From a virus: a stretch of 64,000 nt of DNA. The notes under the pieces were generated by a model, which saw only the letters and a program-made list of their open reading frames with translations, was not told where the DNA came from and searched no databases. The translations under genes were made by a program, and so were the position numbers. This document shows positions 1,829 through 48,402 of this stretch, piece by piece (positions within the stretch are counted from its first letter, which is position 1; each line of letters starts with the position of its first letter). The stretch lies in the IMG/VR virus record IMGVR_UViG_3300025520_000005, one strand, 5' to 3'.

Positions 1829-2128
1829 ATGCCACCTAGAGAACCACCGCTTTTAATGAACAACTGTCAGATTAACCCAGACTGGGAACGGTGGTTGAAG
1901 ACCAATTACCCTAATCTATCTGCACGGGGTACTAATGCCAACGTTATGCTCAAGATGCTTCGGTTTCGGGCTACTATCGATATCGTGCTTAAAGAAAGTT
2001 GGAACGATTACTCCGAGGAAACCTTAGAGCTATTGAGGGAATGTCCCGAAGACTGGGAGTTGTTGATGACCCTGAATCCTCCTAAGCCAACCATGTTACA
2101 ACGGTTTATGCGTTTCATTAAACGCTAA
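1829..2128 (+). CDS. Small protein carrying NPxWxxW module
   Basis: PLLMNNCQINPDWERWL; ATG at 1829 preferred over the upstream start in the ORF track. Confidence 0.7.
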   Translation: MPPREPPLLMNNCQINPDWERWLKTNYPNLSARGTNANVMLKMLRFRATIDIVLKESWNDYSEETLELLRECPEDWELLMTLNPPKPTMLQRFMRFIKR

Positions 2129-10296: not shown

Positions 10297-10889
10297 AATC
10301 CCCCGATTGTGCACGGGTCATCTCGATGGACCAATCGACTTCGTGCATGGGGGTGAGTGTCTTTGATGTCAACCTCGTGAAGCCGGCGCCGATAAAGCTC
10401 CAGTACATGAACACCATTTTTGGTGACAAGTTGCTCTACGACATTCCCGTGCAGTTCGATGATTTGGGTAGTACCAAGGTGCTTGCTCGCAGTTGGGCAA
10501 TGGCTCGTTCTCTCAACATGCTTATTCAGGTGTTTGAACCAGACATGGGGATTGGTGAGGATAACTTCCTTGGGATGTCCCCTGGTACCTTTAAGCAGTT
10601 GATTCAATTGACGGCAATACTGCGGGAACCGTTTGTGGCTAACGATGTTCATTTCTCCTTGGTTCTTCCTCGACTGGCAAAGTCTATTGTAGGCGCTGAC
10701 TTTAAAGGGAGTACTAAGGACGATGTACGGATTGGGCTCATGAACTACCCGTACTTAGATAGTAACGGGATTGATCTCTCCATCGTGGACGAACACAGTT
10801 CCGACAGTGGGGCTATTGGACTTTGGCGATGCGAGAAGTTGGCCCGAGATCACGGAGTATTTATCGGTGACCAACAATTCGCAAAATAG
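10281..10889 (+). CDS. RuvC-like Holliday junction resolvase
   Basis: Acidic catalytic pattern SMDQSTSCMG / GED / DEHSSDSGAIG. Confidence 0.75.
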   Translation: MFEILKSPDCARVISMDQSTSCMGVSVFDVNLVKPAPIKLQYMNTIFGDKLLYDIPVQFDDLGSTKVLARSWAMARSLNMLIQVFEPDMGIGEDNFLGMSPGTFKQLIQLTAILREPFVANDVHFSLVLPRLAKSIVGADFKGSTKDDVRIGLMNYPYLDSNGIDLSIVDEHSSDSGAIGLWRCEKLARDHGVFIGDQQFAK

Positions 10890-11265
10890 TGACGATACGT
10901 CGAGTGACGATGACAGTTCTGGAACACCTGTTCACCCCCCGGTTGGTATGGAACGCGAGATCCTGGGTAAGTGGACAGTCTTCCTGCGTAACTTCGGGGG
11001 GATCATTGCAGTACTGGTGGTGAGCTTTATGGGGGTGTTCAACTCCTACACCATCCACGTATCGGTCAGTGAGCACAACATTTGGCCAAGCGAGATGTCG
11101 ATGTTTATTATGGTTGTAGGTCCCGTCTTGTGTTCGTGGCAGTTCATGAACGTAAGTAAGACCCTGACCACGATCTTCCAGGGAGCAGGTGATCTCACCA
11201 AGTTTCGCGAACGCGTAGCTGGGTTCATTGCTCCTAGTAGCAAGGACGATTCGAAGCAGGATTAA
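10867..11265 (+). CDS. Two-TM membrane protein, holin candidate
   Basis: GTG at 10867 with GGAG upstream; hydrophobic segments GGIIAVLVVSFMGVF and MFIMVVGPVLCSW; adjacent to spanins. Confidence 0.45.
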   Translation: MTNNSQNSDDTSSDDDSSGTPVHPPVGMEREILGKWTVFLRNFGGIIAVLVVSFMGVFNSYTIHVSVSEHNIWPSEMSMFIMVVGPVLCSWQFMNVSKTLTTIFQGAGDLTKFRERVAGFIAPSSKDDSKQD

Positions 11266-36700: not shown

Positions 36701-37129
36701 ATGGCGGCTAGTAAAGCAAGTTTTGTCCAAGTCCTGTTGCAAGAACCAGAGCGAAGTGAAATCCTAGGGTTGTTGGTACAGGCACATTTTGAAATGCCCA
36801 AGTATCCCCTTCATTGTACAGTGATGTATGACGATCGGGAACTGGATCAGCCGTTGTGTACTGTAAACCCTAATAAGGTCTACGAGGCTACGATTCAGAA
36901 CGTTGAAGTGCTTGGTGACGGGTTAGTGTTCCATTTGATCTCTCCTTCATTGGTAGAGGAACACCTGCGGTTGAAAGACCGGGGTTATCAGTCGTCCTTT
37001 GGTGCTTATCTTCCTCATATGTCCATGGCGTATAAGTTTGATAAGTACGAGGTCCTTAAAGCAGACTTCTTGTTTGCTAGCTGGGCTGGGCGTAAGTTAA
37101 CCTTCAGCGAGCAGCAGTTTGGTGATTAA
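36701..37129 (+). CDS. 2H phosphoesterase, Acb1 (T4 gp57B)-like anti-CBASS nuclease candidate
   Basis: Two HxT/S motifs LHCTVMYD and YLPHMSMAY, 142 aa, spacing and LVFHL.S..L...H.....G....F..Y.PH pattern like Acb1. Confidence 0.75.
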   Translation: MAASKASFVQVLLQEPERSEILGLLVQAHFEMPKYPLHCTVMYDDRELDQPLCTVNPNKVYEATIQNVEVLGDGLVFHLISPSLVEEHLRLKDRGYQSSFGAYLPHMSMAYKFDKYEVLKADFLFASWAGRKLTFSEQQFGD

Positions 37130-39118: not shown

Positions 39119-39661
39119 GTGGTTATGAGCGAGTCTATTCATGACGCGATGTACCAAGCGACACTTAAGGATATGCTGGAACACTTTGGACGGAAGATTC
39201 TTAAGCCAGCCCGTGACATGCATCAATGGGGTAACTATGAATGGCCTCTGGGTGAATATGTTATCTCGGTAAAGTTCTCTGAAAACACTCAGGACACGCT
39301 CGTTCCCTTTATCATTTCTGAGACCGGAACAGATGCGGTATTACGCGGCTGGTTTGATATAAAGACGATGGTTCTTTCCAACCTCGATTATCCATCAGTG
39401 AAACACATCAACAACCTGTGCCATCGGCTGTGGAATATACTGCAAATGACCGAAGAGCCAGTTCCTCAGACACTTCCAAGTCCTCCAGCGATGCTCTTAA
39501 CCAACATGACCGACATCAACGATGAATGGATCGAATGGTATCGGCAGGAGAACCCGGGCACTTCCTACGCCAAGGCTATTCATACGGCTTTGGCACAGAT
39601 GACCGAAGAGTACAGAAAGCTCAAGGCTGTTGTCGATAAGTACTCCATCAACCGTTACTGA
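39119..39661 (+). CDS. Protein with C-terminal NPxWxxW-type module
   Basis: PAMLLTNMTDINDEWIEWYRQENPGTSYAKA. Confidence 0.7.
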   Translation: MVMSESIHDAMYQATLKDMLEHFGRKILKPARDMHQWGNYEWPLGEYVISVKFSENTQDTLVPFIISETGTDAVLRGWFDIKTMVLSNLDYPSVKHINNLCHRLWNILQMTEEPVPQTLPSPPAMLLTNMTDINDEWIEWYRQENPGTSYAKAIHTALAQMTEEYRKLKAVVDKYSINRY

Positions 39662-39671
39662 TCTATCTGGT

Positions 39672-39693
39672 CTGCCTAGGGATCCCTAGGCAG
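39672..39693. repeat. 22-bp perfect palindrome, probable terminator
   Basis: CTGCCTAGGGATCCCTAGGCAG followed by T-rich tract. Confidence 0.8.
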
Positions 39694-39725
39694 GCTACCT
39701 TTTCATACTTTCATTTATTTTTAAG

Positions 39726-39735
39726 CCTACATTAT
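39726..39735 (+). promoter_or_regulatory. Putative early promoter motif
   Basis: CCTACATTAT. Confidence 0.6.
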
Positions 39736-39772
39736 TAGTCTGTAGGTAAACTTATTAACTGAGGATAGTCCG

Positions 39773-40537
39773 ATGAAAAAAGAAGTTGAAGTAAACAAGA
39801 CCTTGGCTGCTGCTGGTGATCGCCCTCTTCCCGGTTCCAACATTGACGACGTTATTAATACCCTGGAAGCAGCACTGTCAAAAGTTCCCGCAAATATCCT
39901 AAAGAAGGCTCTGCCAACTAACCTGGATATTAAAGTTGTACTGGATGAACTACGCTGGGTAGCCAATCGCTTTCATGTATTCGAACACGGTCTCATTCGA
40001 ATCGCTCAGGGAACAACGATTGACGAACTAACACAGATTCTCGATACACGTGCAAGCGTCCTCTATTGGCTGTTCGATCGTGATAACGAAGGTCCTTCTA
40101 ATGAAGAGATCATTGCGCTGTGTAAACAGAGCAATAACCCCAAGTTCACTGATACTATCACCTTCCGTCGTCCGCCGGGATATAAAGGCGGTGAACCGTT
40201 GAAGTTGATGAGCGCTGCGCTGGATGCCATTCGCATTTACGAGCGTAACTATGGTCCGTTTATTCCTCAACCGGAATACCTGATCGCTCTGGAGCAAGAG
40301 GACGGTGGTGTTCGTCGGTTCGTTAACCCGGACTGGGTCGAGTGGTGGACTGAATACTCTGACCGCATCGTACACCCGTTGAACGAAGTGGAGAACCGTC
40401 TGCGAGAATCTTTCAAAGACCGTCCTCATTTGACTGCACTGGATGTCCGGGTTAAACATACACCTGAAGTACACGAAATCTTCAATGACGATGTTGAGCG
40501 TCATGAAATCATTGTTTCTTATCAAGCCTTCTTGTAA
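39773..40537 (+). CDS. Protein with NPxWxxW module
   Basis: GGVRRFVNPDWVEWW. Confidence 0.75.
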   Translation: MKKEVEVNKTLAAAGDRPLPGSNIDDVINTLEAALSKVPANILKKALPTNLDIKVVLDELRWVANRFHVFEHGLIRIAQGTTIDELTQILDTRASVLYWLFDRDNEGPSNEEIIALCKQSNNPKFTDTITFRRPPGYKGGEPLKLMSAALDAIRIYERNYGPFIPQPEYLIALEQEDGGVRRFVNPDWVEWWTEYSDRIVHPLNEVENRLRESFKDRPHLTALDVRVKHTPEVHEIFNDDVERHEIIVSYQAFL

Positions 40538-40555
40538 TCTAGGAGTATTTTTGTT

Positions 40556-41005
40556 ATGACCGATACAACCATCGCTGACGGTGCTGCGGGAACCTTCCTG
40601 GTCCCTACTGGATTCGAAGATTCCAAGGATTTCCACGAGTACTGGAAAAAGGTGTACATGTTCATTGCAACTGAGAGCGCGTTCCCTCAGCTGGTGTTCG
40701 CAACGAACGACAACATCTTCAAGCCTCTCCAAGGTCGGGTTATCTCTATCCAAAACGGTTACTGGAAACCGCGTGACGGCAGTGCCCAATCGATCCTTCT
40801 GTGCTTTATCGAACACAAGGGGGAGGAGACAGAGCAGCTGTTCAACATCATGACCCTCGAAAACGGCACGGGCGAGGTGCTTGTAATGACCACCAATACC
40901 AAGACGATCTTCACTGAGGAGGATCGGCTGGTAGTAGAAAGCTGTGTGATCTCGCTCAAAGAGTATCTCCGCATTGTTCCAGTAACTAAACCCACTGCCC
41001 ATTAA
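40556..41005 (+). CDS. Hypothetical protein
   Basis: AGGAG RBS; resembles C-terminal half of the next gene. Confidence 0.7.
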   Translation: MTDTTIADGAAGTFLVPTGFEDSKDFHEYWKKVYMFIATESAFPQLVFATNDNIFKPLQGRVISIQNGYWKPRDGSAQSILLCFIEHKGEETEQLFNIMTLENGTGEVLVMTTNTKTIFTEEDRLVVESCVISLKEYLRIVPVTKPTAH

Positions 41006-41021
41006 CAGGAGCAATACCGTT

Positions 41022-41885
41022 ATGACGGATACCCAAGTAGACGCCCCAATCTTCGGTGGCTTTGTCAAATACGACATTATCATCGAAGTCAAAACACTCT
41101 GCCGTAAGAGCAAGACCACTACGTGGGCTGAGCTGGTTCAGAACGGGTTTGCTGTAGGTGATCACAAATGGGATGAAAGCGACCTCGTTATCCAGACCTC
41201 CGGTATGGGTCATGCTCGCATGGGTCTGTTGACGAGTTACATGACCGACATGCACCGCTACATGAATCCACAGGTCGCCAAGGCTATTTTGCCCGAGCTG
41301 GAGGGTTCTGCTAACGGTCTGGGACACATCGTGCTGGTGGGTTATAAGGAGGGGAGTGATAAGACAGAGCCGTTGATTACTGTTCTCTTCGAGTTCACTC
41401 AACAGCCAGGCGGGAAAATCAAAGTATCCAAGGCAGCTCAGGATTACTTCGCCAAGGAAGCAGAGCTCAAGAAAGCTGAGGCTAACTCGATTACGTGGGT
41501 CCGTGATCTGCACGCCGAGCTCGAAGCTTACAAGGATAAGCATCAGGGCACCCCCCTTCTCGTGTACACGAATGATCCAGAGGTCCCGGCTTGTCTACGC
41601 GGTCGTAAATTCTCTCCGGCTCTCACTCGTGCCTACTTCGATGTCACCGGAAAGAAAACCGCAACTATCCATATCCGTGAGCACACTGCCAAGACTGAAG
41701 GGATAACCCCTCCTTATCTTTTCAGTCTTGTTGCGGAAGAGGGCGAAGACGGTAAGCTATGGATCAGCTACGAGGGCGAAGCAGACTTGAATGAGGATGA
41801 GTATACGACAGTGCAAGAAGTCCTTCTTGCACTTAAGGACGTAGTCACTAACCTGACCCCGCCACACGGCATCATCGAGCACTAA
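41022..41885 (+). CDS. Hypothetical protein
   Basis: AGGAG RBS, 287 aa. Confidence 0.7.
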   Translation: MTDTQVDAPIFGGFVKYDIIIEVKTLCRKSKTTTWAELVQNGFAVGDHKWDESDLVIQTSGMGHARMGLLTSYMTDMHRYMNPQVAKAILPELEGSANGLGHIVLVGYKEGSDKTEPLITVLFEFTQQPGGKIKVSKAAQDYFAKEAELKKAEANSITWVRDLHAELEAYKDKHQGTPLLVYTNDPEVPACLRGRKFSPALTRAYFDVTGKKTATIHIREHTAKTEGITPPYLFSLVAEEGEDGKLWISYEGEADLNEDEYTTVQEVLLALKDVVTNLTPPHGIIEH

Positions 41886-41951
41886 GTTGTAACCAAGGGG
41901 ATCATCGTATTGGTCCCCTGATCTTTAACCTTCTAGTAGAGTATTACCGCA

Positions 41952-42371
41952 ATGAAGCGGATGGTTGTTTACGTTAAGCGTCTCTTTTCTTTATACATGA
42001 CTCCTACTGGCTTTGGGTCTTCCCCGGACAGCGGATTCGAACCCATTCAAGATATTCATTACATTCCAGCCAGTGATGAACCATCCTTGTTTGGCGATGG
42101 ACCCGATGGTATTAACAATAACTGGCTGGCATGGTATTTCAAGAACAACACTAATAAAGGTTATGTCGCCGCAATAATGACGGCTAACCAAATACGCATG
42201 GGGCTTAACTGCGAACCGCCGCGTGTTTACAACAAGCGCTACCTTCCCCCTATTCTCGTGGGTCCCTCTAAACTGATTTCTCTTGAGTGGGTTATCTGGT
42301 ACCACTACGAGTTCAGTGTAGGTCTGGAGGACGCACATCAAACTGCTGTTAGCATTACAGGAAAAGAATGA
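41952..42371 (+). CDS. Protein with two NPxWxxW-type modules
   Basis: EPSLFGDGPDGINNNWLAWY and PPILVGPSKLISLEWVIWY. Confidence 0.65.
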   Translation: MKRMVVYVKRLFSLYMTPTGFGSSPDSGFEPIQDIHYIPASDEPSLFGDGPDGINNNWLAWYFKNNTNKGYVAAIMTANQIRMGLNCEPPRVYNKRYLPPILVGPSKLISLEWVIWYHYEFSVGLEDAHQTAVSITGKE

Positions 42372-42670
42372 TGGACAAGGTTCCTTTGATTGACTTGAAA
42401 ACTGGACGTTTAAATTTCGAGTGGGTCTATTGTTATTCCAAGGAAAACAACTGCGACGTTATTGCAGCCTTTAGAGAAGGGATGAACCAACTCGGTAATC
42501 TGTACATCCAGCTTAAGGACTTTCAACAGAAGTTCCTCGAGAGTCCACACGAAATGCTGCGTGAGTACGAAGTTTACTGCGGTGGGCAGCATGAGTTAGA
42601 CAGGCGCTTGGATGCACGGCGCCAAACCCCTAACAAGAATGCTCCAAGGCCACCAGTGATTTGCGATTAA
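42368..42670 (+). CDS. Protein with N-terminal NPxWxxW-type module
   Basis: VPLIDLKTGRLNFEWVYCYSKENNCDVIAA. Confidence 0.7.
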   Translation: MMDKVPLIDLKTGRLNFEWVYCYSKENNCDVIAAFREGMNQLGNLYIQLKDFQQKFLESPHEMLREYEVYCGGQHELDRRLDARRQTPNKNAPRPPVICD

Positions 42671-42681
42671 CATAATAGACC

Positions 42682-42712
42682 CTACCTACTGCACCTAAGG
42701 TGCAGTAGGTAG
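42682..42712. terminator. Hairpin between convergent genes
   Basis: CTACCTACTGCACC-TAA-GGTGCAGTAGGTAG, 14-bp stem. Confidence 0.75.
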
Positions 42713-42724
42713 TCACGTCTTTCT

Positions 42725-43822
42725 TTAACCGCTGATAACGCTGAAATAACGGTTGATCATGTTGCTGATCCGGCGGATGTTCTCGCAGGTAACACGCAGT
42801 TGTTTGATCGCTTCGGTAGTCAACTTCAGGATCAGGCGGCAAGCCTTCAAGTCCTTGTTGAACTTGTCCTGGTTAGCCTGACGCAGGTCTTTACGACCTA
42901 CCAATTCTTCCAGCTTCTTGATCTGACTGATCACGTCAGCCTTGATACCGCGGCTGATAGAAGCGGATTCGCTTTCCAGTTCGGTAAGGGCTTTCTGTAG
43001 GTCAGCCTGAGTGCGAGCAGCATCGTTCAGGGTACGCATGCCCTGAGGGATACGAACCCACTTTTCGATTTCATGACTGGCGTTGTGTTTCATTGCCGCC
43101 GCGTAGGTCTTGTACATGTCGTGGAATGCGGTCCCCACGAACTCGGCGCTGTGGTCTGCGGTAACAACGGATTGGTACGTCTTGTACTCTTCAAGCGCGC
43201 GTTGACAGACGTCGTCGAGCCCTTTTTGCATACGGCTGTTGATCTTGACAAAACGCTCGACCACTTCCTTGATCACCTGTTGTTGTTCAGGTGCGGGAAG
43301 AGCTTTGACGTCTTTCAGCTTGTGCTTGAGTTCTTGAGCTTCCGACTTCTCGCTCGGGGAAGTTTGGGAAGCATTAATGAACGCTTCGAGATCAGCTTGA
43401 GAACGATGAAGCTGTTTAGCCAGATCTTCGCCTTGCAGAACACGGTGACCTGTGAGGGCTGCGAGGTTGGCTTGGTTCTGTTTGAGGACCGATTCAGTTT
43501 CCTGAACAATGTTTTTGCTGCGGTCACCACCACTCCCCAAACCGAAGAAGTTCAGGATAGCATTGAACATCTTCTTGATGTATTCCCAAACCTTGCTAGC
43601 ACCTTCGCCGATGGACGAGAAGAAGCCTTCGTTGCCCGCGATACGCTGACGGTAGGAAACGTCACCAGTGCCGTTCAAAACACCCCACATGTAATGCTGA
43701 GCGCGGGAAAGACCCTCGGTCCCTGCAACGTCGGTCAACGTATCGCTCAGTGCGTCAAACACTTCGTCGATATGTTCCGAGTCGTGTAATTCGGTATTAT
43801 CGCTATCAATAACCATGTCCAT
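42725..43822 (-). CDS. Probable internal head (ejection) protein with cleavable propeptide
   Basis: Acidic N-terminus, AGTEG and AGNEG sites, then amphipathic FFSSIGEGASKVWEYIKKMF helix typical of phiKZ inner-head paralogues. Confidence 0.6.
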   Translation of the reverse strand: MDMVIDSDNTELHDSEHIDEVFDALSDTLTDVAGTEGLSRAQHYMWGVLNGTGDVSYRQRIAGNEGFFSSIGEGASKVWEYIKKMFNAILNFFGLGSGGDRSKNIVQETESVLKQNQANLAALTGHRVLQGEDLAKQLHRSQADLEAFINASQTSPSEKSEAQELKHKLKDVKALPAPEQQQVIKEVVERFVKINSRMQKGLDDVCQRALEEYKTYQSVVTADHSAEFVGTAFHDMYKTYAAAMKHNASHEIEKWVRIPQGMRTLNDAARTQADLQKALTELESESASISRGIKADVISQIKKLEELVGRKDLRQANQDKFNKDLKACRLILKLTTEAIKQLRVTCENIRRISNMINRYFSVISG

Positions 43823-43908
43823 GTAATGCTCCGCGGTCTTTATTTGGGGTTGATGTTAACATAAAATATCACCCCGCCAATAATCTATAAACTGTAAGGA
43901 AAACTGTT

Positions 43909-44505
43909 ATGAAACCTTTTGTATTTGATCCAACCTTGGAAGCTGTAGAACAGGAACGTCAGATCATTGGCTGGTTCCGTGACTACCCTCCGAAGAACGC
44001 CAAAGCTCTACTTAACCGTGTTTTGCAGATCTATCACATGGTTCCAGACTTTGCTCAGAAGTCGTTCTGCAACACCCTGTTGAACGGTAACGTTAAAGAT
44101 CCAATGGCGGTACTGGCTCAGTTTATCTATGAGATGGATTCGGTTCCACAACTCATCGAACAGCTGAAGCGTGAAGGTAACCACGGGATGGTTATCTACC
44201 GTCAGAAGTTTTACGGGATCAGCTTGGTTACTAACAAGAAGTGGCTGAGCAAGAAAGATTTACACCCGTGGACCCCCGAACAAGAAACCGAAATCTGCGA
44301 ACAAGCACTGGATCAGTGGATGATCGAGAACCGCGTTCAGCACTTCACTGAAAAGGTTGTGTTGTTTCAGCAGTATGGGTTTTCTGGAGTGGCTCGTTTA
44401 ATGGACGTCAAGATGGACGATGAGTCTTGGGAAGAGGTTAAGAAACTTAAGATCACCGATCAACTGGCCAAGTACCTGAACCCGGAGCCTGAACATGAAG
44501 ACTGA
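43909..44505 (+). CDS. Hypothetical protein
   Basis: AAGGA RBS, 198 aa. Confidence 0.7.
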   Translation: MKPFVFDPTLEAVEQERQIIGWFRDYPPKNAKALLNRVLQIYHMVPDFAQKSFCNTLLNGNVKDPMAVLAQFIYEMDSVPQLIEQLKREGNHGMVIYRQKFYGISLVTNKKWLSKKDLHPWTPEQETEICEQALDQWMIENRVQHFTEKVVLFQQYGFSGVARLMDVKMDDESWEEVKKLKITDQLAKYLNPEPEHED

Positions 44506-45190
44506 TAAGCCAACACCGGAGTACCTTGATACTTTCCTTAAGCGTCTGACAGACAAGGAATTGAATGAGCTTATTGTTACACGAGCCCACCACGACAACC
44601 GGGTTCCGATTGAGTTCGCTTCCTACACCAGTGGGGTTAGCTGCGGGATAGATAATGATGGGTATAAGCTGGCTGTGATAGAAGCCGCTCGCCGGGCCGA
44701 AAGAAACTTTGAAGGACTTGGGTTATCTCCACAGGCCCTTGAGTTACTTAAGCCCGGTCGTAAAGTTAAAGATAACACCGACCCTATCATTGAACTCAAC
44801 CGTCTTGCGGCTGGGGCGGTTGAAAGACCCTTTAGTAAACGGATAGGTCAGCGAGAGGATGATGAGGTCAATCCAGTAACTCTCTTGAAGGGGTTTGATA
44901 TCCCGTTGACCAGTCCTTACGGGGCTACTCGTCCTTCGCCTTGGTTCAAAGAGCAGCGGGACGGTCGCAAAACCCCTTCTACTGAACGCTTCGAAAAGTT
45001 TGTAAAGGAAGTTCCTATCCACGAACTCTTTGAGATGGGCGATCTGATTGTAGATAATCCAGTTGTACGTGGGCTGGGTGGTTATCATTCTTTGGCACTG
45101 AATCAAAGTGAGACGGTTTATCATACTGATCTCCCGCTTATCTATGGAGAGATCAAGTCTCGGTTTAAACAAATGGGGGTGGTGAAATGA
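44495..45190 (+). CDS. Hypothetical protein
   Basis: Coupled ORF, 231 aa. Confidence 0.65.
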   Translation: MKTDKPTPEYLDTFLKRLTDKELNELIVTRAHHDNRVPIEFASYTSGVSCGIDNDGYKLAVIEAARRAERNFEGLGLSPQALELLKPGRKVKDNTDPIIELNRLAAGAVERPFSKRIGQREDDEVNPVTLLKGFDIPLTSPYGATRPSPWFKEQRDGRKTPSTERFEKFVKEVPIHELFEMGDLIVDNPVVRGLGGYHSLALNQSETVYHTDLPLIYGEIKSRFKQMGVVK

Positions 45191-45468
45191 GTTTTACATC
45201 TATTAGCTTTTCCATGGGTGACGGATCAAAGGGATGGAGTGGTGCTTCGTTTAAACCCGAGCCGTCACGATTCCCGTTTGCTTGGCCGGATGAAGATAAG
45301 TATCGGGCTATCTTCGAACGTAAGTACGAGATCAAACCAGGGCAAGTAATCACCTGCCGTCGGGAGGGTGACTTCCTTCGGTTCACCAGACGGGAGTTGA
45401 TCGGCGTCTACTACCACTATGCCCCGCTGGAAAGTGTTTACAGTCCGGTTAAGAAACTGCTGTGGTGA
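45187..45468 (+). CDS. Hypothetical protein
   Basis: ATGA overlap, 93 aa. Confidence 0.6.
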   Translation: MSFTSISFSMGDGSKGWSGASFKPEPSRFPFAWPDEDKYRAIFERKYEIKPGQVITCRREGDFLRFTRRELIGVYYHYAPLESVYSPVKKLLW

Positions 45469-45617
45469 CAAGGGTCCCGGTCGGTAAAGATCACTGCGGT
45501 AGAACAATCTACTCGGTTACTTATGGTCATGGCATTGAGTTTGGGGTTTATATAAAGGACATCTTCTGGTTGTATTGGGATTTGTCCTTTGAACCTTATT
45601 TGGGGGTAAACAAATGA
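45465..45617 (+). CDS. 50-aa ORF missing from the ORF track
   Basis: GTGA overlap upstream, ATGA overlap downstream; MTRVPVGKDHCGRTIYSVTYGHG... Confidence 0.55.
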   Translation: MTRVPVGKDHCGRTIYSVTYGHGIEFGVYIKDIFWLYWDLSFEPYLGVNK

Positions 45618-46072
45618 GTAACTTTTTGAAGGACTTGGGGATAGCAGTATTACCTCCCCACGTGTTAAAGCTTCCTTTTATCGGGTCGTTTATTAACGGC
45701 GGGCATTACATCGCTCATCCTTCAGAGCCACCACTCTTTAGCCGGAAAGAAGCTCACTACAATGAGATCTGGACGGACTGGTTGTGGTTTGTTATGAAGT
45801 ACGATCCTGATAACGGGGATAACTTTGACTATCGTGTTCACAAGTGCGATCCAGAGTATCACGAAGTACTCCGCAACATGGCTCAGAAGTTAGGCGAGGC
45901 CATCCTGAGTGATCTGGAGAAGCCAGGGATTATCCTCCCCAAGCAACCTCCTAGACTCTGGACCACTAATGGGCGATACGTTTCCCATGCGTGGGTACTG
46001 GATACTGCAAGACGGGATAACATGCCTATTCACGAGGCGGTTGCATTGGGCTGTTCGATGAGACCTACTTAA
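45614..46072 (+). CDS. Protein with two NPxWxxW-type modules
   Basis: PPLFSRKEAHYNEIWTDW and PPRLWTTNGRYVSHAWV. Confidence 0.65.
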   Translation: MSNFLKDLGIAVLPPHVLKLPFIGSFINGGHYIAHPSEPPLFSRKEAHYNEIWTDWLWFVMKYDPDNGDNFDYRVHKCDPEYHEVLRNMAQKLGEAILSDLEKPGIILPKQPPRLWTTNGRYVSHAWVLDTARRDNMPIHEAVALGCSMRPT

Positions 46073-46075
46073 GTT

Positions 46076-46315
46076 ATGGAAAAGACGATGAAGAAATATG
46101 CGGTTTCGATCATTGTTGTAATTGTTCTTGTGATAGCGGGATTGTTCTTACCGAGGTTAGTCGAAGCCATCACAACCTTATCATGTGTAGATGATATCGT
46201 TGAAGGTACTTCGGTTTCGTTGTGCACGGGGGAGCTCGATACCGCTGAATGCAATGCCCGTCTTGCTGAAGAAAAGACTGAGGCTTATAAACGAGCCGTA
46301 GAGAAATGTTCATGA
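46076..46315 (+). CDS. Small single-TM protein with Cys-rich exterior part
   Basis: Hydrophobic N-terminal helix, four Cys. Confidence 0.6.
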   Translation: MEKTMKKYAVSIIVVIVLVIAGLFLPRLVEAITTLSCVDDIVEGTSVSLCTGELDTAECNARLAEEKTEAYKRAVEKCS

Positions 46316-46336
46316 GACTTAAGCGAGGACGCTAGC

Positions 46337-46588
46337 ATGATCTACGACCACCTTTTACGTGAGTGTTTACGTAATGTCTCTTTACCGGTATTGCGCAAAG
46401 TAGACGGTAGTATAAACCCTGACTGGAGAAGACTTAAAAGTTTCATTGAAGAGCGTGAAATTCCGCAAGAGGAGATCGACAAAGAAATCGCTCACGATGA
46501 TCGGATCATTGACGAGATGGTCGGACTCTTACCCGCTCCACAATACCCATTACCTGAAGATAAGGAACGAACTTTCCATGAACGTTAA
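46337..46588 (+). CDS. Small protein with NPxW module
   Basis: LPVLRKVDGSINPDWRRL. Confidence 0.65.
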   Translation: MIYDHLLRECLRNVSLPVLRKVDGSINPDWRRLKSFIEEREIPQEEIDKEIAHDDRIIDEMVGLLPAPQYPLPEDKERTFHER

Positions 46589-46838
46589 GAAAGTACGTTG
46601 GCGTATCCAGCGAGAACTGGATTCAGTACTTAATAGCCATTTCGTGTTGGACGTTAAGAAACAACCGGTTCTCCCTATGGAGGACCAAGACCGAACCGAG
46701 TGGTTGTTGTGGTGTTGCTTTACCTATAGCTGCACCATGCAAGAAGCTAACCATCGTTACAAGCACAACGTGGGGATGATGAAGCGAATGGCGGAGAACA
46801 TCAGAAAACGCCGGAAGACTAAGTCCGCTAAGGTTTAA
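46578..46838 (+). CDS. Small protein with degenerate WxxW module
   Basis: ATG at 46578 after AAGGA; QPVLPMEDQDRTEWLLWCCFTYSCTMQEA. Confidence 0.6.
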   Translation: MNVKKVRWRIQRELDSVLNSHFVLDVKKQPVLPMEDQDRTEWLLWCCFTYSCTMQEANHRYKHNVGMMKRMAENIRKRRKTKSAKV

Positions 46839-46856
46839 CTTGTAGTTCTATTCAGG

Positions 46857-46866
46857 CCTACATTAC
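46857..46866 (+). promoter_or_regulatory. Putative early promoter motif
   Basis: CCTACATTAC-TAGG. Confidence 0.65.
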
Positions 46867-46904
46867 TAGGACGTAATACCTTACATTGATTTTGTTACCG
46901 AGGA

Positions 46905-47723
46905 TTGTTTATGCATTACCTTAATGATGAAGAAAAGAAAATCGTGACGTACTCTAACCGGCACGCATTCCCTCCTCGTCCATTAACGGATATCGAGAAG
47001 ACGCTTGCTCGGATCATGTTTGTGCGGGACATCCCGACTGACACCAAAGGCGACATCCTCGCCAAGGTGGACGAGATCAACCTGTTGGTTAACAAGCTCA
47101 AAGAACTCACCGCTAATAACCGTCTGGCGGACAAAGTGAAATCCGCGTTGGTTTCTCCTGATACGTTCGACGAGTTCACCGAGGGTTACCCCTACGCCAA
47201 GTACAACTACATTATTAACGGCAACCCTAAGTTGTCTACGCTGGTGCAGTTAGCGATCGACGGGTTCAGTGAGGTGCAGGTCCAACAACTGATGCGCTGG
47301 GTATCCCAGGTTGCCTTTGCGTTCTACGCGGGTCTACCCAAAGGTATCGACACCTTTATCTGGACACCGCACACCCGGCACTACCACACCCATGCCATGT
47401 TCCAGGCTACGAAGGACAAAGCCTTCTACGGTTATACTCTTCCGCCTCAAGAACAAACCCTGATTAACACTCTCTTCGCTGATAAGGGCGTCGATAGTCG
47501 TCCGGGTGGTAACCTGTGGGCAATGCATCACGTTCGCCGTACAGAGCTCCACAAGCAGCCTGAGGTATGGGCTCGCATGGGGTGGGGCGACATCGCTAAA
47601 GAAGTCTTCAACACAGGTCTGGAAATGAACTTTGGTTATGATCTTGCCAACGGTCCTTACTGGTTCCTGGAGTTGCGTCACGAGAAGACCAACAGCCGTC
47701 TGCGCTTCATTGTCGAGGGATGA
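46905..47723 (+). CDS. Hypothetical protein
   Basis: 272 aa, GAGG RBS; His-rich patch HTRHYHTH. Confidence 0.7.
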   Translation: MFMHYLNDEEKKIVTYSNRHAFPPRPLTDIEKTLARIMFVRDIPTDTKGDILAKVDEINLLVNKLKELTANNRLADKVKSALVSPDTFDEFTEGYPYAKYNYIINGNPKLSTLVQLAIDGFSEVQVQQLMRWVSQVAFAFYAGLPKGIDTFIWTPHTRHYHTHAMFQATKDKAFYGYTLPPQEQTLINTLFADKGVDSRPGGNLWAMHHVRRTELHKQPEVWARMGWGDIAKEVFNTGLEMNFGYDLANGPYWFLELRHEKTNSRLRFIVEG

Positions 47724-48067
47724 GTTACATGTCGGGAAACATCGAACCGCAATTCATCAAGAAGAACGGCGAGCCTAATCCTAACTGGATCCAATGGCAT
47801 ATGACGGTGACTGGTTGTGATGAGAACAAAGCTCGTTACAACTGGTGGGTAAAGGTTCGTGAGATGGAAGAACCTGCGTTGATGACCGCTAATGAAAAGC
47901 CTAACCCGATCTGGGTTGCTTGGTGGCGTGGGCATAAGGGTTGCAGTAACAATGTAGCCCTGAACACCTGCAAAGCCAAGATCGCGGGTACCTGGGTTCC
48001 TAATAAGCGGGCTAACCAATGGTTGGACCAAAAGAAAACGATTCGCCAGATGAAGGAACTTGATTAA
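47720..48067 (+). CDS. Protein built of two tandem NPxWxxW modules
   Basis: EPQFIKKNGEPNPNWIQWHMTVTGCDENKA and EPALMTANEKPNPIWVAWWRGHKGCSNNVA. Confidence 0.75.
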   Translation: MSYMSGNIEPQFIKKNGEPNPNWIQWHMTVTGCDENKARYNWWVKVREMEEPALMTANEKPNPIWVAWWRGHKGCSNNVALNTCKAKIAGTWVPNKRANQWLDQKKTIRQMKELD

Positions 48068-48402
48068 TGAACAAAAGTCCTTTTGAGAAATACCAGATCA
48101 GGGATCAACAGCCTATCGGGGATCAGTTGGCTGAAGCTGCTGTAAATGCTTCTTATGCCCGATCCGTTCCGACTGCTGCTGGTCGCGAAGCACCCCTCCC
48201 GACAGGGCGTATCTTTACAGGTCTTCTCGGGTTGCTGAATGCTGGAGTCAATAGTCCTTATTCGATTCCCGCTGAAGTCCGAACACGGGTCCACGTAAGA
48301 ATCACTATGGCCAGTCTCATGGGGAAGTCTTTGGAACAACCCTACGTTGACAGTTTGGTCAGTTTTAACAAGCAAGCGAAAAAGTTCCGTAAACGTTTAT
48401 AA
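48067..48402 (+). CDS. Hypothetical protein
   Basis: TAATG coupling. Confidence 0.6.
   Translation: MNKSPFEKYQIRDQQPIGDQLAEAAVNASYARSVPTAAGREAPLPTGRIFTGLLGLLNAGVNSPYSIPAEVRTRVHVRITMASLMGKSLEQPYVDSLVSFNKQAKKFRKRL

What the first reader, a model, noticed from the sequence alone, without database searches (positions are those of the whole stretch)
39119..48067. A short P-x-L...G-x-x-N-P-x-W-x-x-W module shared by many unrelated small proteins
Seen: near-identical geometry in proteins with no other visible similarity. 39119 PAMLLTNMTDINDEWIEWYRQENPGTSYAKA; 39773 GVRRFVNPDWVEWW; 41952 EPSLFGDGPDGINNNWLAWY and PPILVGPSKLISLEWVIWYHYEFSVGLEDA; 42368 VPLIDLKTGRLNFEWVYCYSKENNCDVIAA; 45614 PPLFSRKEAHYNEIWTDW and PPRLWTTNGRYVSHAWVLDTARRDNMPIHEA; 46337 LPVLRKVDGSINPDW; 46578 QPVLPMEDQDRTEWLLWCCFTYSCTMQEA; 47720 two copies; plus the outlier at 1829. 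That is 12 copies in 9 genes, at N-terminal, internal and C-terminal positions. Many continue into a second helix (x4-5-[GNS]-[CTV]-x-x-x-x-A). Inference: a mobile mini-domain (beta-hairpin plus Trp helix, perhaps with a helix-turn-helix) that docks diverse cargo domains onto one hub, such as a host or phage complex, membrane, or nucleus import machinery. I know no described family matching it.
Basis: partly seen in the sequence, partly recalled or inferred. Interest (0 to 1): 0.88.

Follow-up and report, generated by a model that had tools for sequence, protein, structure and literature searches.

The report
New Trp-core mini-domain in jumbo phage
A roughly 40-residue protein module not found in the domain libraries searched (a small hairpin plus two helices around a W-x-x-W-Y core) is repeated in many small proteins of phage-EL-like giant phages; the family is real, but what it binds is unknown.

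Summary
All 12 quoted segments exist. The window is a distant relative of Pseudomonas jumbo phage EL.

Iterative searches seeded with a single module, run against reversed and shuffled decoys, recover six modules in four genes (1829, 39119, 41952 x2, 47720 x2) and EL gp084 and gp133. The family-wide profile adds a seventh (42368).

A profile search of 1.84 billion proteins found 49 further clusters, from 210-240 kb phage contigs where checked. Against that family profile the seven score P <= 2e-9. B, E1, F and G score 6e-5 to 5e-4, and E2 scores 0.01. The best of 70 other window ORFs scores 0.0097.

AlphaFold models of two different proteins give the same layout: beta-bridge, 10-11-residue helix, 3-5-residue turn, then a helix of 13 or more residues. 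Pfam, NCBIfam, PHROGs, PDB sequences and fold searches give no match.

The conserved residues look like a fold core (W/W/Y against A and a small residue). Module charge ranges from -5 to +8. I therefore favour a self-folding binding scaffold diversified among probably early accessory proteins.

A single shared hub is untested. A phage-nucleus import tag is disfavoured, because one copy sits in PaBG, a jumbo phage outside the phiKZ group.

The parts
1829..2128 (+). Gene O (99 aa). N-terminal module at about 1835-1966. This is the outlier copy.
   Evidence: jackhmmer core member. hhalign against A7 gives P 1.2e-11. The orthologue in G001 sits at the same relative place.
39119..39661 (+). Gene A (180 aa). 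An N-terminal alpha/beta domain is followed by a C-terminal module (39476-39607) that runs into a long helix.
   Evidence: Core member. P 4e-16. The AF2 model has pLDDT 81, with bridges at residues 126 and 133, helix 135-144 and helix 150-177. The module is the best-conserved part of the family alignment A6.
39773..40537 (+). Gene B (254 aa). Probable degenerate module around 40301-40426; only the NPDWVEWW core is recognisable.
   Evidence: hhalign P 6e-5, or 1.1e-4 as a single sequence. HMM score 7-11 bits in all three orthologues. The homologue in L026 keeps a full module of 19.7 bits.
41952..42371 (+). Gene C (139 aa). Two modules, at 42072-42203 and 42240-42368.
   Evidence: Core members. 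P 2.9e-10 and 4.7e-13.
42368..42670 (+). Gene D (100 aa). N-terminal module at 42374-42499.
   Evidence: 21.5 bits with the family-wide HMM, against a decoy maximum of 8-11. hhalign P 1.7e-9. The gene is absent from G001.
45614..46072 (+). Gene E (152 aa), a paralogue of C. E1 (45722-45847) is a probable module. E2 (45941-46066) is a weak module at the position of C2.
   Evidence: E1 has P 8e-5 and E2 has P 0.01. The N-termini of C and E align. The two share homologues in L021, L025 and L026.
46337..46588 (+). Gene F (83 aa). Possible module at 46376-46501, with the hairpin and first Trp only.
   Evidence: hhalign P 1.6e-4. HMM score 8.3 bits. An orthologue was found only in L003.
46578..46838 (+). 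Gene G (86 aa, pI 10). Possible module at 46656-46781, with the W-x-x-W ... S-C-T-x-x-x-A spacing kept.
   Evidence: hhalign P 5e-4, in register with A7 columns 16-34. The HMM score is only 5 bits, which is noise level.
47720..48067 (+). Gene H (115 aa, pI 9.4), orthologue of EL gp133. Two back-to-back modules (47738-47869 and 47864-47995) followed by a basic C-terminal helix.
   Evidence: tblastn to EL gp133. P 1.9e-15 and 1.7e-18. AF2 pLDDT 82, pTM 0.65. The BFVD model of EL gp133 superposes at TM 0.83 by target.
39726..39736 (+). EL-type promoter-like motif CCTACATTATT, about 35 nt upstream of gene B.
   Evidence: The motif is enriched: 10 sites against 1.6 expected. It matches the predicted EL promoter WTTTYAAACCTACATTATY listed in PMC7058600.
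46857..46867 (+). EL-type promoter-like motif CCTACATTACT upstream of gene 46905-47723, which precedes H.

Best explanation
What it is. This is a genuine protein domain of about 40 residues that I found in none of the libraries searched. Its consensus is [PD]-E-P-x-L-[IFL]-x3-G-x-[IPL]-N-x-x-W-[VIL]-x-W-Y-x4-G-[VCT]-S-x3-A-x3-[AGC]-x2-[RK]-I.

Fold. A tight hairpin is followed by a helix of 10-11 residues. A turn of 3-5 residues (C-cap Gly, N-cap Ser/Thr) then leads into a second helix.

Core (inferred). The bulky W, [VIL], W and Y on one face of helix 1 probably pack against the invariant Ala and a small residue four positions later on helix 2. On this reading the conserved signature is the fold's core, not a shared binding epitope.

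Spread. The domain has been duplicated, fused to different flanking domains and diversified in a fast-turning-over block of small, probably early, accessory genes of EL-like jumbo phages. The window carries 7 to 12 copies and its relatives 3 to 12.

Mechanism (inferred). It most likely works as a compact self-folding binding scaffold whose variable surface gives each paralogue its own partner. The consistently basic two-module gp133 type (gene H here) may bind nucleic acid.

Shown: the family, its distribution, its predicted secondary structure and its absence from domain libraries. Inferred: core packing, early expression and binding function.
For: Family reality.

Conservation across phages that share only about 34% identity in a virion protein.

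Family logo: E 95%, P 100%, N/S 96%, W 100%, W 88%, Y/F/W 94%, A 93%, small residue 73%. Net charge per module runs from -5 to +8.

The secondary structure is in the same register in three modules from two proteins. An independently predicted EL gp133 model superposes at TM 0.83.

Varied architectures and copy numbers.

Gene turnover: D and F are missing in G001, and EL has only gp133 in the equivalent block.

EL-type promoter motifs lie upstream of two units of the cluster.

The gp133-type proteins have pI 8.8-10.2, while the other window carriers except O (7.8) and G (10.0) have pI 5.0-6.4.

No library match.
Against: No partner, ligand or phenotype is known for any member. Glu at position 2 is 95% conserved and is not an obvious core residue, so it could be part of a common binding site. 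In the A family the module surface is nearly invariant, which fits a specific conserved partner. I could not inspect model coordinates, so the burial of the Trp residues is inferred from sequence periodicity only. The early timing rests on a promoter motif, not on expression data.
Confidence: 0.45

Rival explanations
1. Shared address tag. All modules bind one hub, either a host complex or a phage complex, and so recruit different cargo domains to the same place. Tandem copies would act as bivalent adaptors or decoys.
For: One signature sits on many different flanking domains. An invariant charged Glu and exposed-type aromatics are possible. The module occurs in two unrelated P. aeruginosa jumbo phages, EL and PaBG, which would fit a host target.
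Against: The conserved positions read as a hydrophobic core plus caps. The surface and charge vary widely. Many carriers are almost nothing but modules, so they have no cargo. A nucleus-import hub is unlikely: the module is absent from phiKZ, 201phi2-1 and RisingSun and present in non-phiKZ PaBG, and known import uses surface patches rather than terminal signals.
Confidence: 0.2
2. Nucleic-acid-binding motif. The module would be a divergent helix-turn-helix (or ribbon-helix-helix-like) DNA/RNA-binding unit, and the family a set of small phage regulators or DNA-coating proteins.
For: Helix, G-x-S/T turn, helix. Many of the top but non-significant Foldseek and VIA rows are HTH DNA binders: MarR, MerR, AraC, homeodomains, IHF. 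The gp133-type proteins are uniformly basic.
Against: No Pfam HTH or RHH model recurs among 49 members even at E 10; the only HTH row is one member to HTH_Tnp_Tc5 at E 0.025. All structural hits have E > 1 or Z <= 4.9. Many modules are acidic: A is about -4 by hand count and the family range is -5 to +8. The residue before the turn Gly is polar, not the hydrophobic residue of classical HTH motifs. The beta-bridges are i/i+6-7 within a module rather than a strand paired between modules as in RHH.
Confidence: 0.2
3. Obligate pairing or dimerisation element. Modules would bury their aromatic face against a second module, in cis in tandem proteins and in trans in single-copy ones.
For: Tandem copies have a fixed 42-residue period. 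pTM is 0.65 for H, and the same two-module arrangement appears in an independent EL gp133 model.
Against: The excess of two-copy proteins is a score-threshold bias. Unbiased scans of relatives find more single-module ORFs than double ones. The homodimer prediction gave no verdict, which counts neither way.
Confidence: 0.12
4. Chance resemblance or composition artefact picked out by eye.
For: G, E2 and F are individually near noise with plain HMMs.
Against: Decoy-controlled iterative searches, 49 independent clusters in a 1.84-billion-protein library, and conservation in EL and PaBG.
Confidence: 0.01

Closest known systems
Pseudomonas phage EL gp133 (YP_418166) and gp084 (YP_418117), annotated as hypothetical proteins
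   Same: True homologues. gp133 is the two-module orthologue of gene H (35% identity, tblastn E 6e-7, structure TM 0.83). gp084 carries one C-terminal module.
   Different: EL has only 3 modules in 2 genes, while the window has 7 certain and up to 12. No function is known for either EL protein.
Helix-turn-helix and homeodomain-like DNA-binding motifs
   Same: Two helices joined by a short Gly-containing turn. Weak structural resemblance only (Z 3.0-3.5 to homeodomains; Foldseek rows with E > 1).
   Different: No sequence-profile match. There is no third helix. An extra N-terminal hairpin is present. The residue before the turn Gly is polar. Many copies are acidic.
Ribbon-helix-helix (Arc/CopG/MetJ) domains
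   Same: Similar size (about 40-45 aa), the order strand - helix - G-x-S/T - helix, and occurrence as pairs.
   Different: The predicted bridges are within one module rather than between two strands of a dimer. No Pfam RHH hit. Single copies are common.
Lineage-specific expansions of small domains in jumbo phages, for example the roughly 35-copy zinc ribbon of Bacillus phage G (PMC7824862)
   Same: One small domain multiplied within one jumbo-phage lineage, function unknown, suggested to be binding or regulatory.
   Different: A different fold with no metal ligands, here also fused to varied flanking domains and clustered in one block.
Capsid-targeting sequence of T4 internal proteins (from my own knowledge, not tested)
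   Same: A shared short element on otherwise diverse small proteins encoded in a hyperplastic region.
   Different: The T4 element is a strictly N-terminal, cleaved peptide. This is a folded domain found at any position and often in tandem.

Membership tests
Any Pfam, NCBIfam or PHROG family | A significant profile match | tested here: not met
   No relevant hit for the 9 window proteins. No family recurs among 49 family members even at E <= 10.
Classical helix-turn-helix DNA-binding domains | Profile match to an HTH family, or a significant structural match to an HTH domain | tested here: not met
   No significant or recurrent Pfam HTH hit; one member matches HTH_Tnp_Tc5 at E 0.025. Foldseek E > 1 and VIA Z <= 3.6 for H and <= 4.9 for A.
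Classical helix-turn-helix DNA-binding domains | Helix, 3-4-residue Gly turn, helix | tested here: inconclusive
   AF2 gives an 11-residue helix, a 3-residue turn with Gly and a 13-residue helix in H, and a 5-residue turn in A. I could not measure the inter-helix angle.
Ribbon-helix-helix (Arc/MetJ/CopG) | An N-terminal strand that pairs with the strand of a second unit to form the ribbon | tested here: inconclusive
   DSSP shows only isolated bridges at W-10/W-11 and W-4 in each module, which fits an intra-module hairpin best. Bridge partners could not be read out.
Ribbon-helix-helix (Arc/MetJ/CopG) | Helix A - G-x-S/T/N - helix B loop signature | tested here: met
   Positions 25-27 are G 47% / [VCT] / S+T 65%, followed by Ala 93% four residues later.
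Chimallivirus nuclear-import determinants (PicA/Imp cargo) | Restricted to nucleus-forming phages and shared among their imported proteins | tested here: not met
   No copy in phiKZ, 201phi2-1 or RisingSun, and one copy in PaBG, which lies outside the phiKZ group. The literature reports surface-patch recognition, not a terminal signal sequence.
EL gp133/gp084 module family (defined here, alignment A7) | Match to the family profile well above decoys and above other window ORFs | tested here: met
   P <= 2e-9 for O, A, C1, C2, D, H1 and H2. P 6e-5 to 5e-4 for B, E1, F and G. P 0.01 for E2. Background best is 0.0097.

The most novel reading that the evidence does not exclude
The module is a common address tag. 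Its invariant E-P...N..W..WY face would bind one hub, plausibly a Pseudomonas host complex given its presence in both EL-like phages and the unrelated PaBG. A whole battery of early phage proteins would then be delivered to the same cellular site, and the module-only tandem proteins would act as competitors or bivalent bridges.
Probability: 0.17. Interest if true: 0.8.

Novelty: new variant of a known kind. Interest (0 to 1): 0.5.

Why it matters
Jumbo phages of the EL lineage devote up to a dozen small genes in one fast-changing block to proteins built on this module, yet no member has a name, a solved structure or a known function.

Defining the family turns a set of ORFans into one tractable problem. 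One structure, one interaction screen and one Trp-to-Ala mutant series, feasible in the cultivable EL / P. aeruginosa system through gp133 and gp084, would inform dozens of proteins.

If the copies share a target, that target would be a new host-takeover node. If they do not, the module is a natural minimal binding scaffold of about 40 residues.

Tried and rejected
- **Library searches.** Pfam, PHROGs and NCBIfam scans gave nothing. PDB sequence profiles gave only chance hits.
- **Fold searches.** I searched with the H and A models in pdb, afdb_clusters, pdb_via_wide, atlas and BFVD. Only EL gp133 was significant (gp084 ranked 4th at E 0.97). Recurrent DUF6321 rows have TM 0.25-0.3 and no sequence support.
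- **ESM Atlas feature search.** No usable hit.
- **Homodimer prediction of A residues 112-180.** No verdict, so it is not evidence either way.
- **Even copy number as a sign of obligate pairing.** Dropped. The two-copy excess is a summed-score bias, and unbiased scans show mostly single copies.
- **Link to the EL-type phage chaperonin.** Dropped. Phage OBP, which from my own knowledge also encodes a chaperonin, has no module.
- **Ribbon-helix-helix reading.** Attractive on spacing, but the predicted bridges are intra-module.
- **phiKZ-type prohead-protease site (S/A/G-x-E) before the module.** The residue two positions before Glu is not S/A/G-enriched, by eye on A7.
- **Search for chimallin in PaBG using phiKZ gp054.** Uninformative, because it did not find EL's own either.
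- **DNA-level repeats among module-coding segments.** None, so there is no recent cassette duplication.
- **Leave-one-gene-out with only the 12 window segments.** It separated O, A, C and H from background, left B marginal and did not separate D-G. More sequences were needed.
- **Artefacts.** P0014 and P0049 are repeat-protein artefacts and were excluded.


Full report
**Setting.** The window belongs to a phiKZ/EL-type jumbo phage. Its 1254-aa virion protein is 34% identical to that of Pseudomonas phage EL. The order NAD-ligase ... GroEL-like chaperonin matches EL gp122 ... gp146. I recovered three closer relatives:
- L003, a 28-kb Logan contig, about 83% identical for gene H.
- G001/L004, a complete 234.5-kb IMG/VR genome, about 66% identical for gene H.
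- Several 209-237-kb metagenomic contigs with the same Acb1 ... acetyltransferase layout.

- An HMM of the 12 segments finds nothing else in the six-frame window.
- A leave-one-gene-out test on those 12 alone separated O, A, C and H from background, left B marginal, and did not separate D-G.
The best decoy scores 5.6 bits.
- jackhmmer seeded with a single module (O, A or H2), run against window and relative ORFs mixed with reversed and shuffled decoys, converges on O, A, C1, C2, H1, H2 and EL gp084/gp133. It picked up 0, 0 and 2 decoy domains respectively.

**Wider family.** I searched the core alignment (A3) against 1.84 billion representative proteins.
- This gave 51 hits at E <= 1e-3. Forty-nine show the motif and two are repeat artefacts.
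- The hits carry one to four modules, at either end or internally, next to different flanking sequences.
- None of the ten clusters checked has an informative name, and several sit on 220-240-kb contigs.

**Grading the window's copies.** I used an 89-module HMM and the 59-module alignment A7.
- D becomes unambiguous, at 21.5 bits. The best of 30,870 shuffled decoys scores 11.3 bits.
- hhalign against A7 gives P <= 2e-9 for the seven core modules.
- The weaker copies score 6e-5 (B), 8e-5 (E1), 1.6e-4 (F), 5e-4 (G) and 0.01 (E2).
- The best of 70 other window ORFs is 0.0097, so the P-values behave as expected.
- B's homologue in L026 has a complete module.
- E shares full-length homologues with C, and its N-terminus aligns with C's. 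E is therefore a diverged paralogue of C.

My grading is seven certain, three probable (B, E1, E2) and two possible (F, G).

**Anatomy.**
- The family logo is [PD]-E-P-x-L-[IFL]-x3-G-x-[IPL]-N-x-x-W-[VIL]-x-W-Y-x4-G-[VCT]-S-x3-A-x3-[AGC]-x2-[RK]-I.
- AlphaFold2 of H (pLDDT 82) and of A (pLDDT 81) gives the same elements in register with the first Trp. Bridges fall at W-10/-11 and W-4. A helix runs from W-2 to W+7/8. A turn of 3-5 residues follows, and a second helix starts at W+12/13.
- The BFVD model of EL gp133 superposes on H at TM 0.83 by target, so two independent predictions agree on the two-module arrangement.
- No other significant structural or sequence match exists. Low-scoring rows are generic two-helix motifs, many from HTH proteins.

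**Distribution.**
- EL has three modules.
- G001 has the orthologues of the window's copies, minus D and F.
- L021, L025 and L026 carry 10-12 modules in 6-10 ORFs within 11-20 kb of the same region.
- phiKZ, 201phi2-1, RisingSun, LAh10 and OBP show none, with the caveat of a loose pre-filter in that tool.
- One excellent copy (49.6 bits) lies in an unannotated 117-aa TTG-start ORF of phage PaBG. PaBG's own genome paper places it far from phiKZ-like phages and reports sigma factors rather than phage multisubunit RNA polymerases (PMC7412058).

**Function.**
- The neighbouring genes give no functional clue: none matches Pfam, and only one matches PHROGs, all of unknown function.
- The conserved positions are what a 40-residue fold needs: Pro and Leu in the first strand, the hairpin Gly, an N-cap Asn, W/[VIL]/W/Y on one face of helix 1, the Gly and Ser/Thr caps, and an invariant Ala with a small residue four positions later on helix 2.
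- I read this as large knobs packing on small holes, that is, a core signature. This is an inference from sequence periodicity, because I could not inspect model coordinates.
- Net charge per module runs from -5 to +8.
- The gp133-type two-module proteins are always basic (pI 8.8-10.2). A to F are acidic or near neutral.
- EL-type promoter-like motifs (CCTACATTAYT, the EL counterpart of phiKZ's TATATTAC in PMC7058600) lie upstream of gene B and of the unit containing H. That phiKZ's motif marks early genes is from my own knowledge.
- Together with the gene turnover, this suggests a diversifying set of early accessory proteins built on one scaffold. The basic tandem type is a candidate nucleic-acid binder.

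The single-hub docking model remains possible. The 95%-conserved Glu, the near-invariant module surface within the A family and the EL/PaBG host overlap all speak for it. Nothing here tests it. Its nucleus-import form is disfavoured.

**Novelty.** I found no described family, no named homologue in the clusters checked, and no mention in the comparative jumbo-phage survey I searched. The phenomenon, a lineage-specific expansion of a small domain in a jumbo phage, has precedents. The domain itself appears to be new.

Noticed in passing
L022 1282-1635 (+), which is NC_022096.1 about 10735-11088 (-), phage PaBG: An unannotated 117-aa ORF with a TTG start that overlaps the stop of gp018. It ends in a near-consensus module (PEPALRAANGRPNVDWIKWYRATTGCGLKEA).
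   Followed up: partly
window 28020, 37210, 39726, 46857, 49393, 52968, 55523, 56445, 58947, 63498 (all + strand): The promoter-like motif C[CT]TA[CT]ATTA[CT] is strongly enriched: 6 exact TATATTAC against 0.9 expected, and 10 CCTACATTAYT-like sites against 1.6. It matches the predicted EL and phiKZ promoters listed in PMC7058600.
   Followed up: partly
L003 19877-20339 (relative's contig, just after the chaperonin gene): The close relative carries an IS605 OrfB / Cas12f-like TnpB gene next to its chaperonin. I did not see such a gene at the equivalent place in the window, but the ORFs there were not scanned.
   Followed up: no
window 41900-48100: Near-identical DNA (45-67% of sampled words) occurs in wastewater, dairy, food, leaf/plant and freshwater metagenomes. 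In all, 12 studies hold at least part of the stretch, including a subsurface sample that may be the window's source. This is a widespread phage whose habitats suggest an environmental Pseudomonas-type host.
   Followed up: no
window 39119-39475 and alignment A6: The N-terminal domain of the A family (helix, five-strand meander, helix; conserved G-x-Y-Q-W-P-L-G) is duplicated in the 290-aa members. It has only weak fold matches to unnamed proteins.
   Followed up: partly
L026 1-193 (relative); window 36701-37129: The relative's gene at the position of the window's 142-aa ORF carries a precomputed Pfam Acb1 (PF23474) hit.
   Followed up: no
L015 (PQ516283.1, phage vB_PQ1): The homologue of the 1254-aa virion protein is split into seven annotated CDSs, and the 184-kb record has 488 features. 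This looks like a frameshift-ridden assembly.
   Followed up: no
window 42725-43822 (-): The only minus-strand gene inside the cluster (365 aa) matches several unknown-function PHROGs, with phrog_21850 at E 2e-30. It is therefore much more widely conserved than its neighbours.
   Followed up: no
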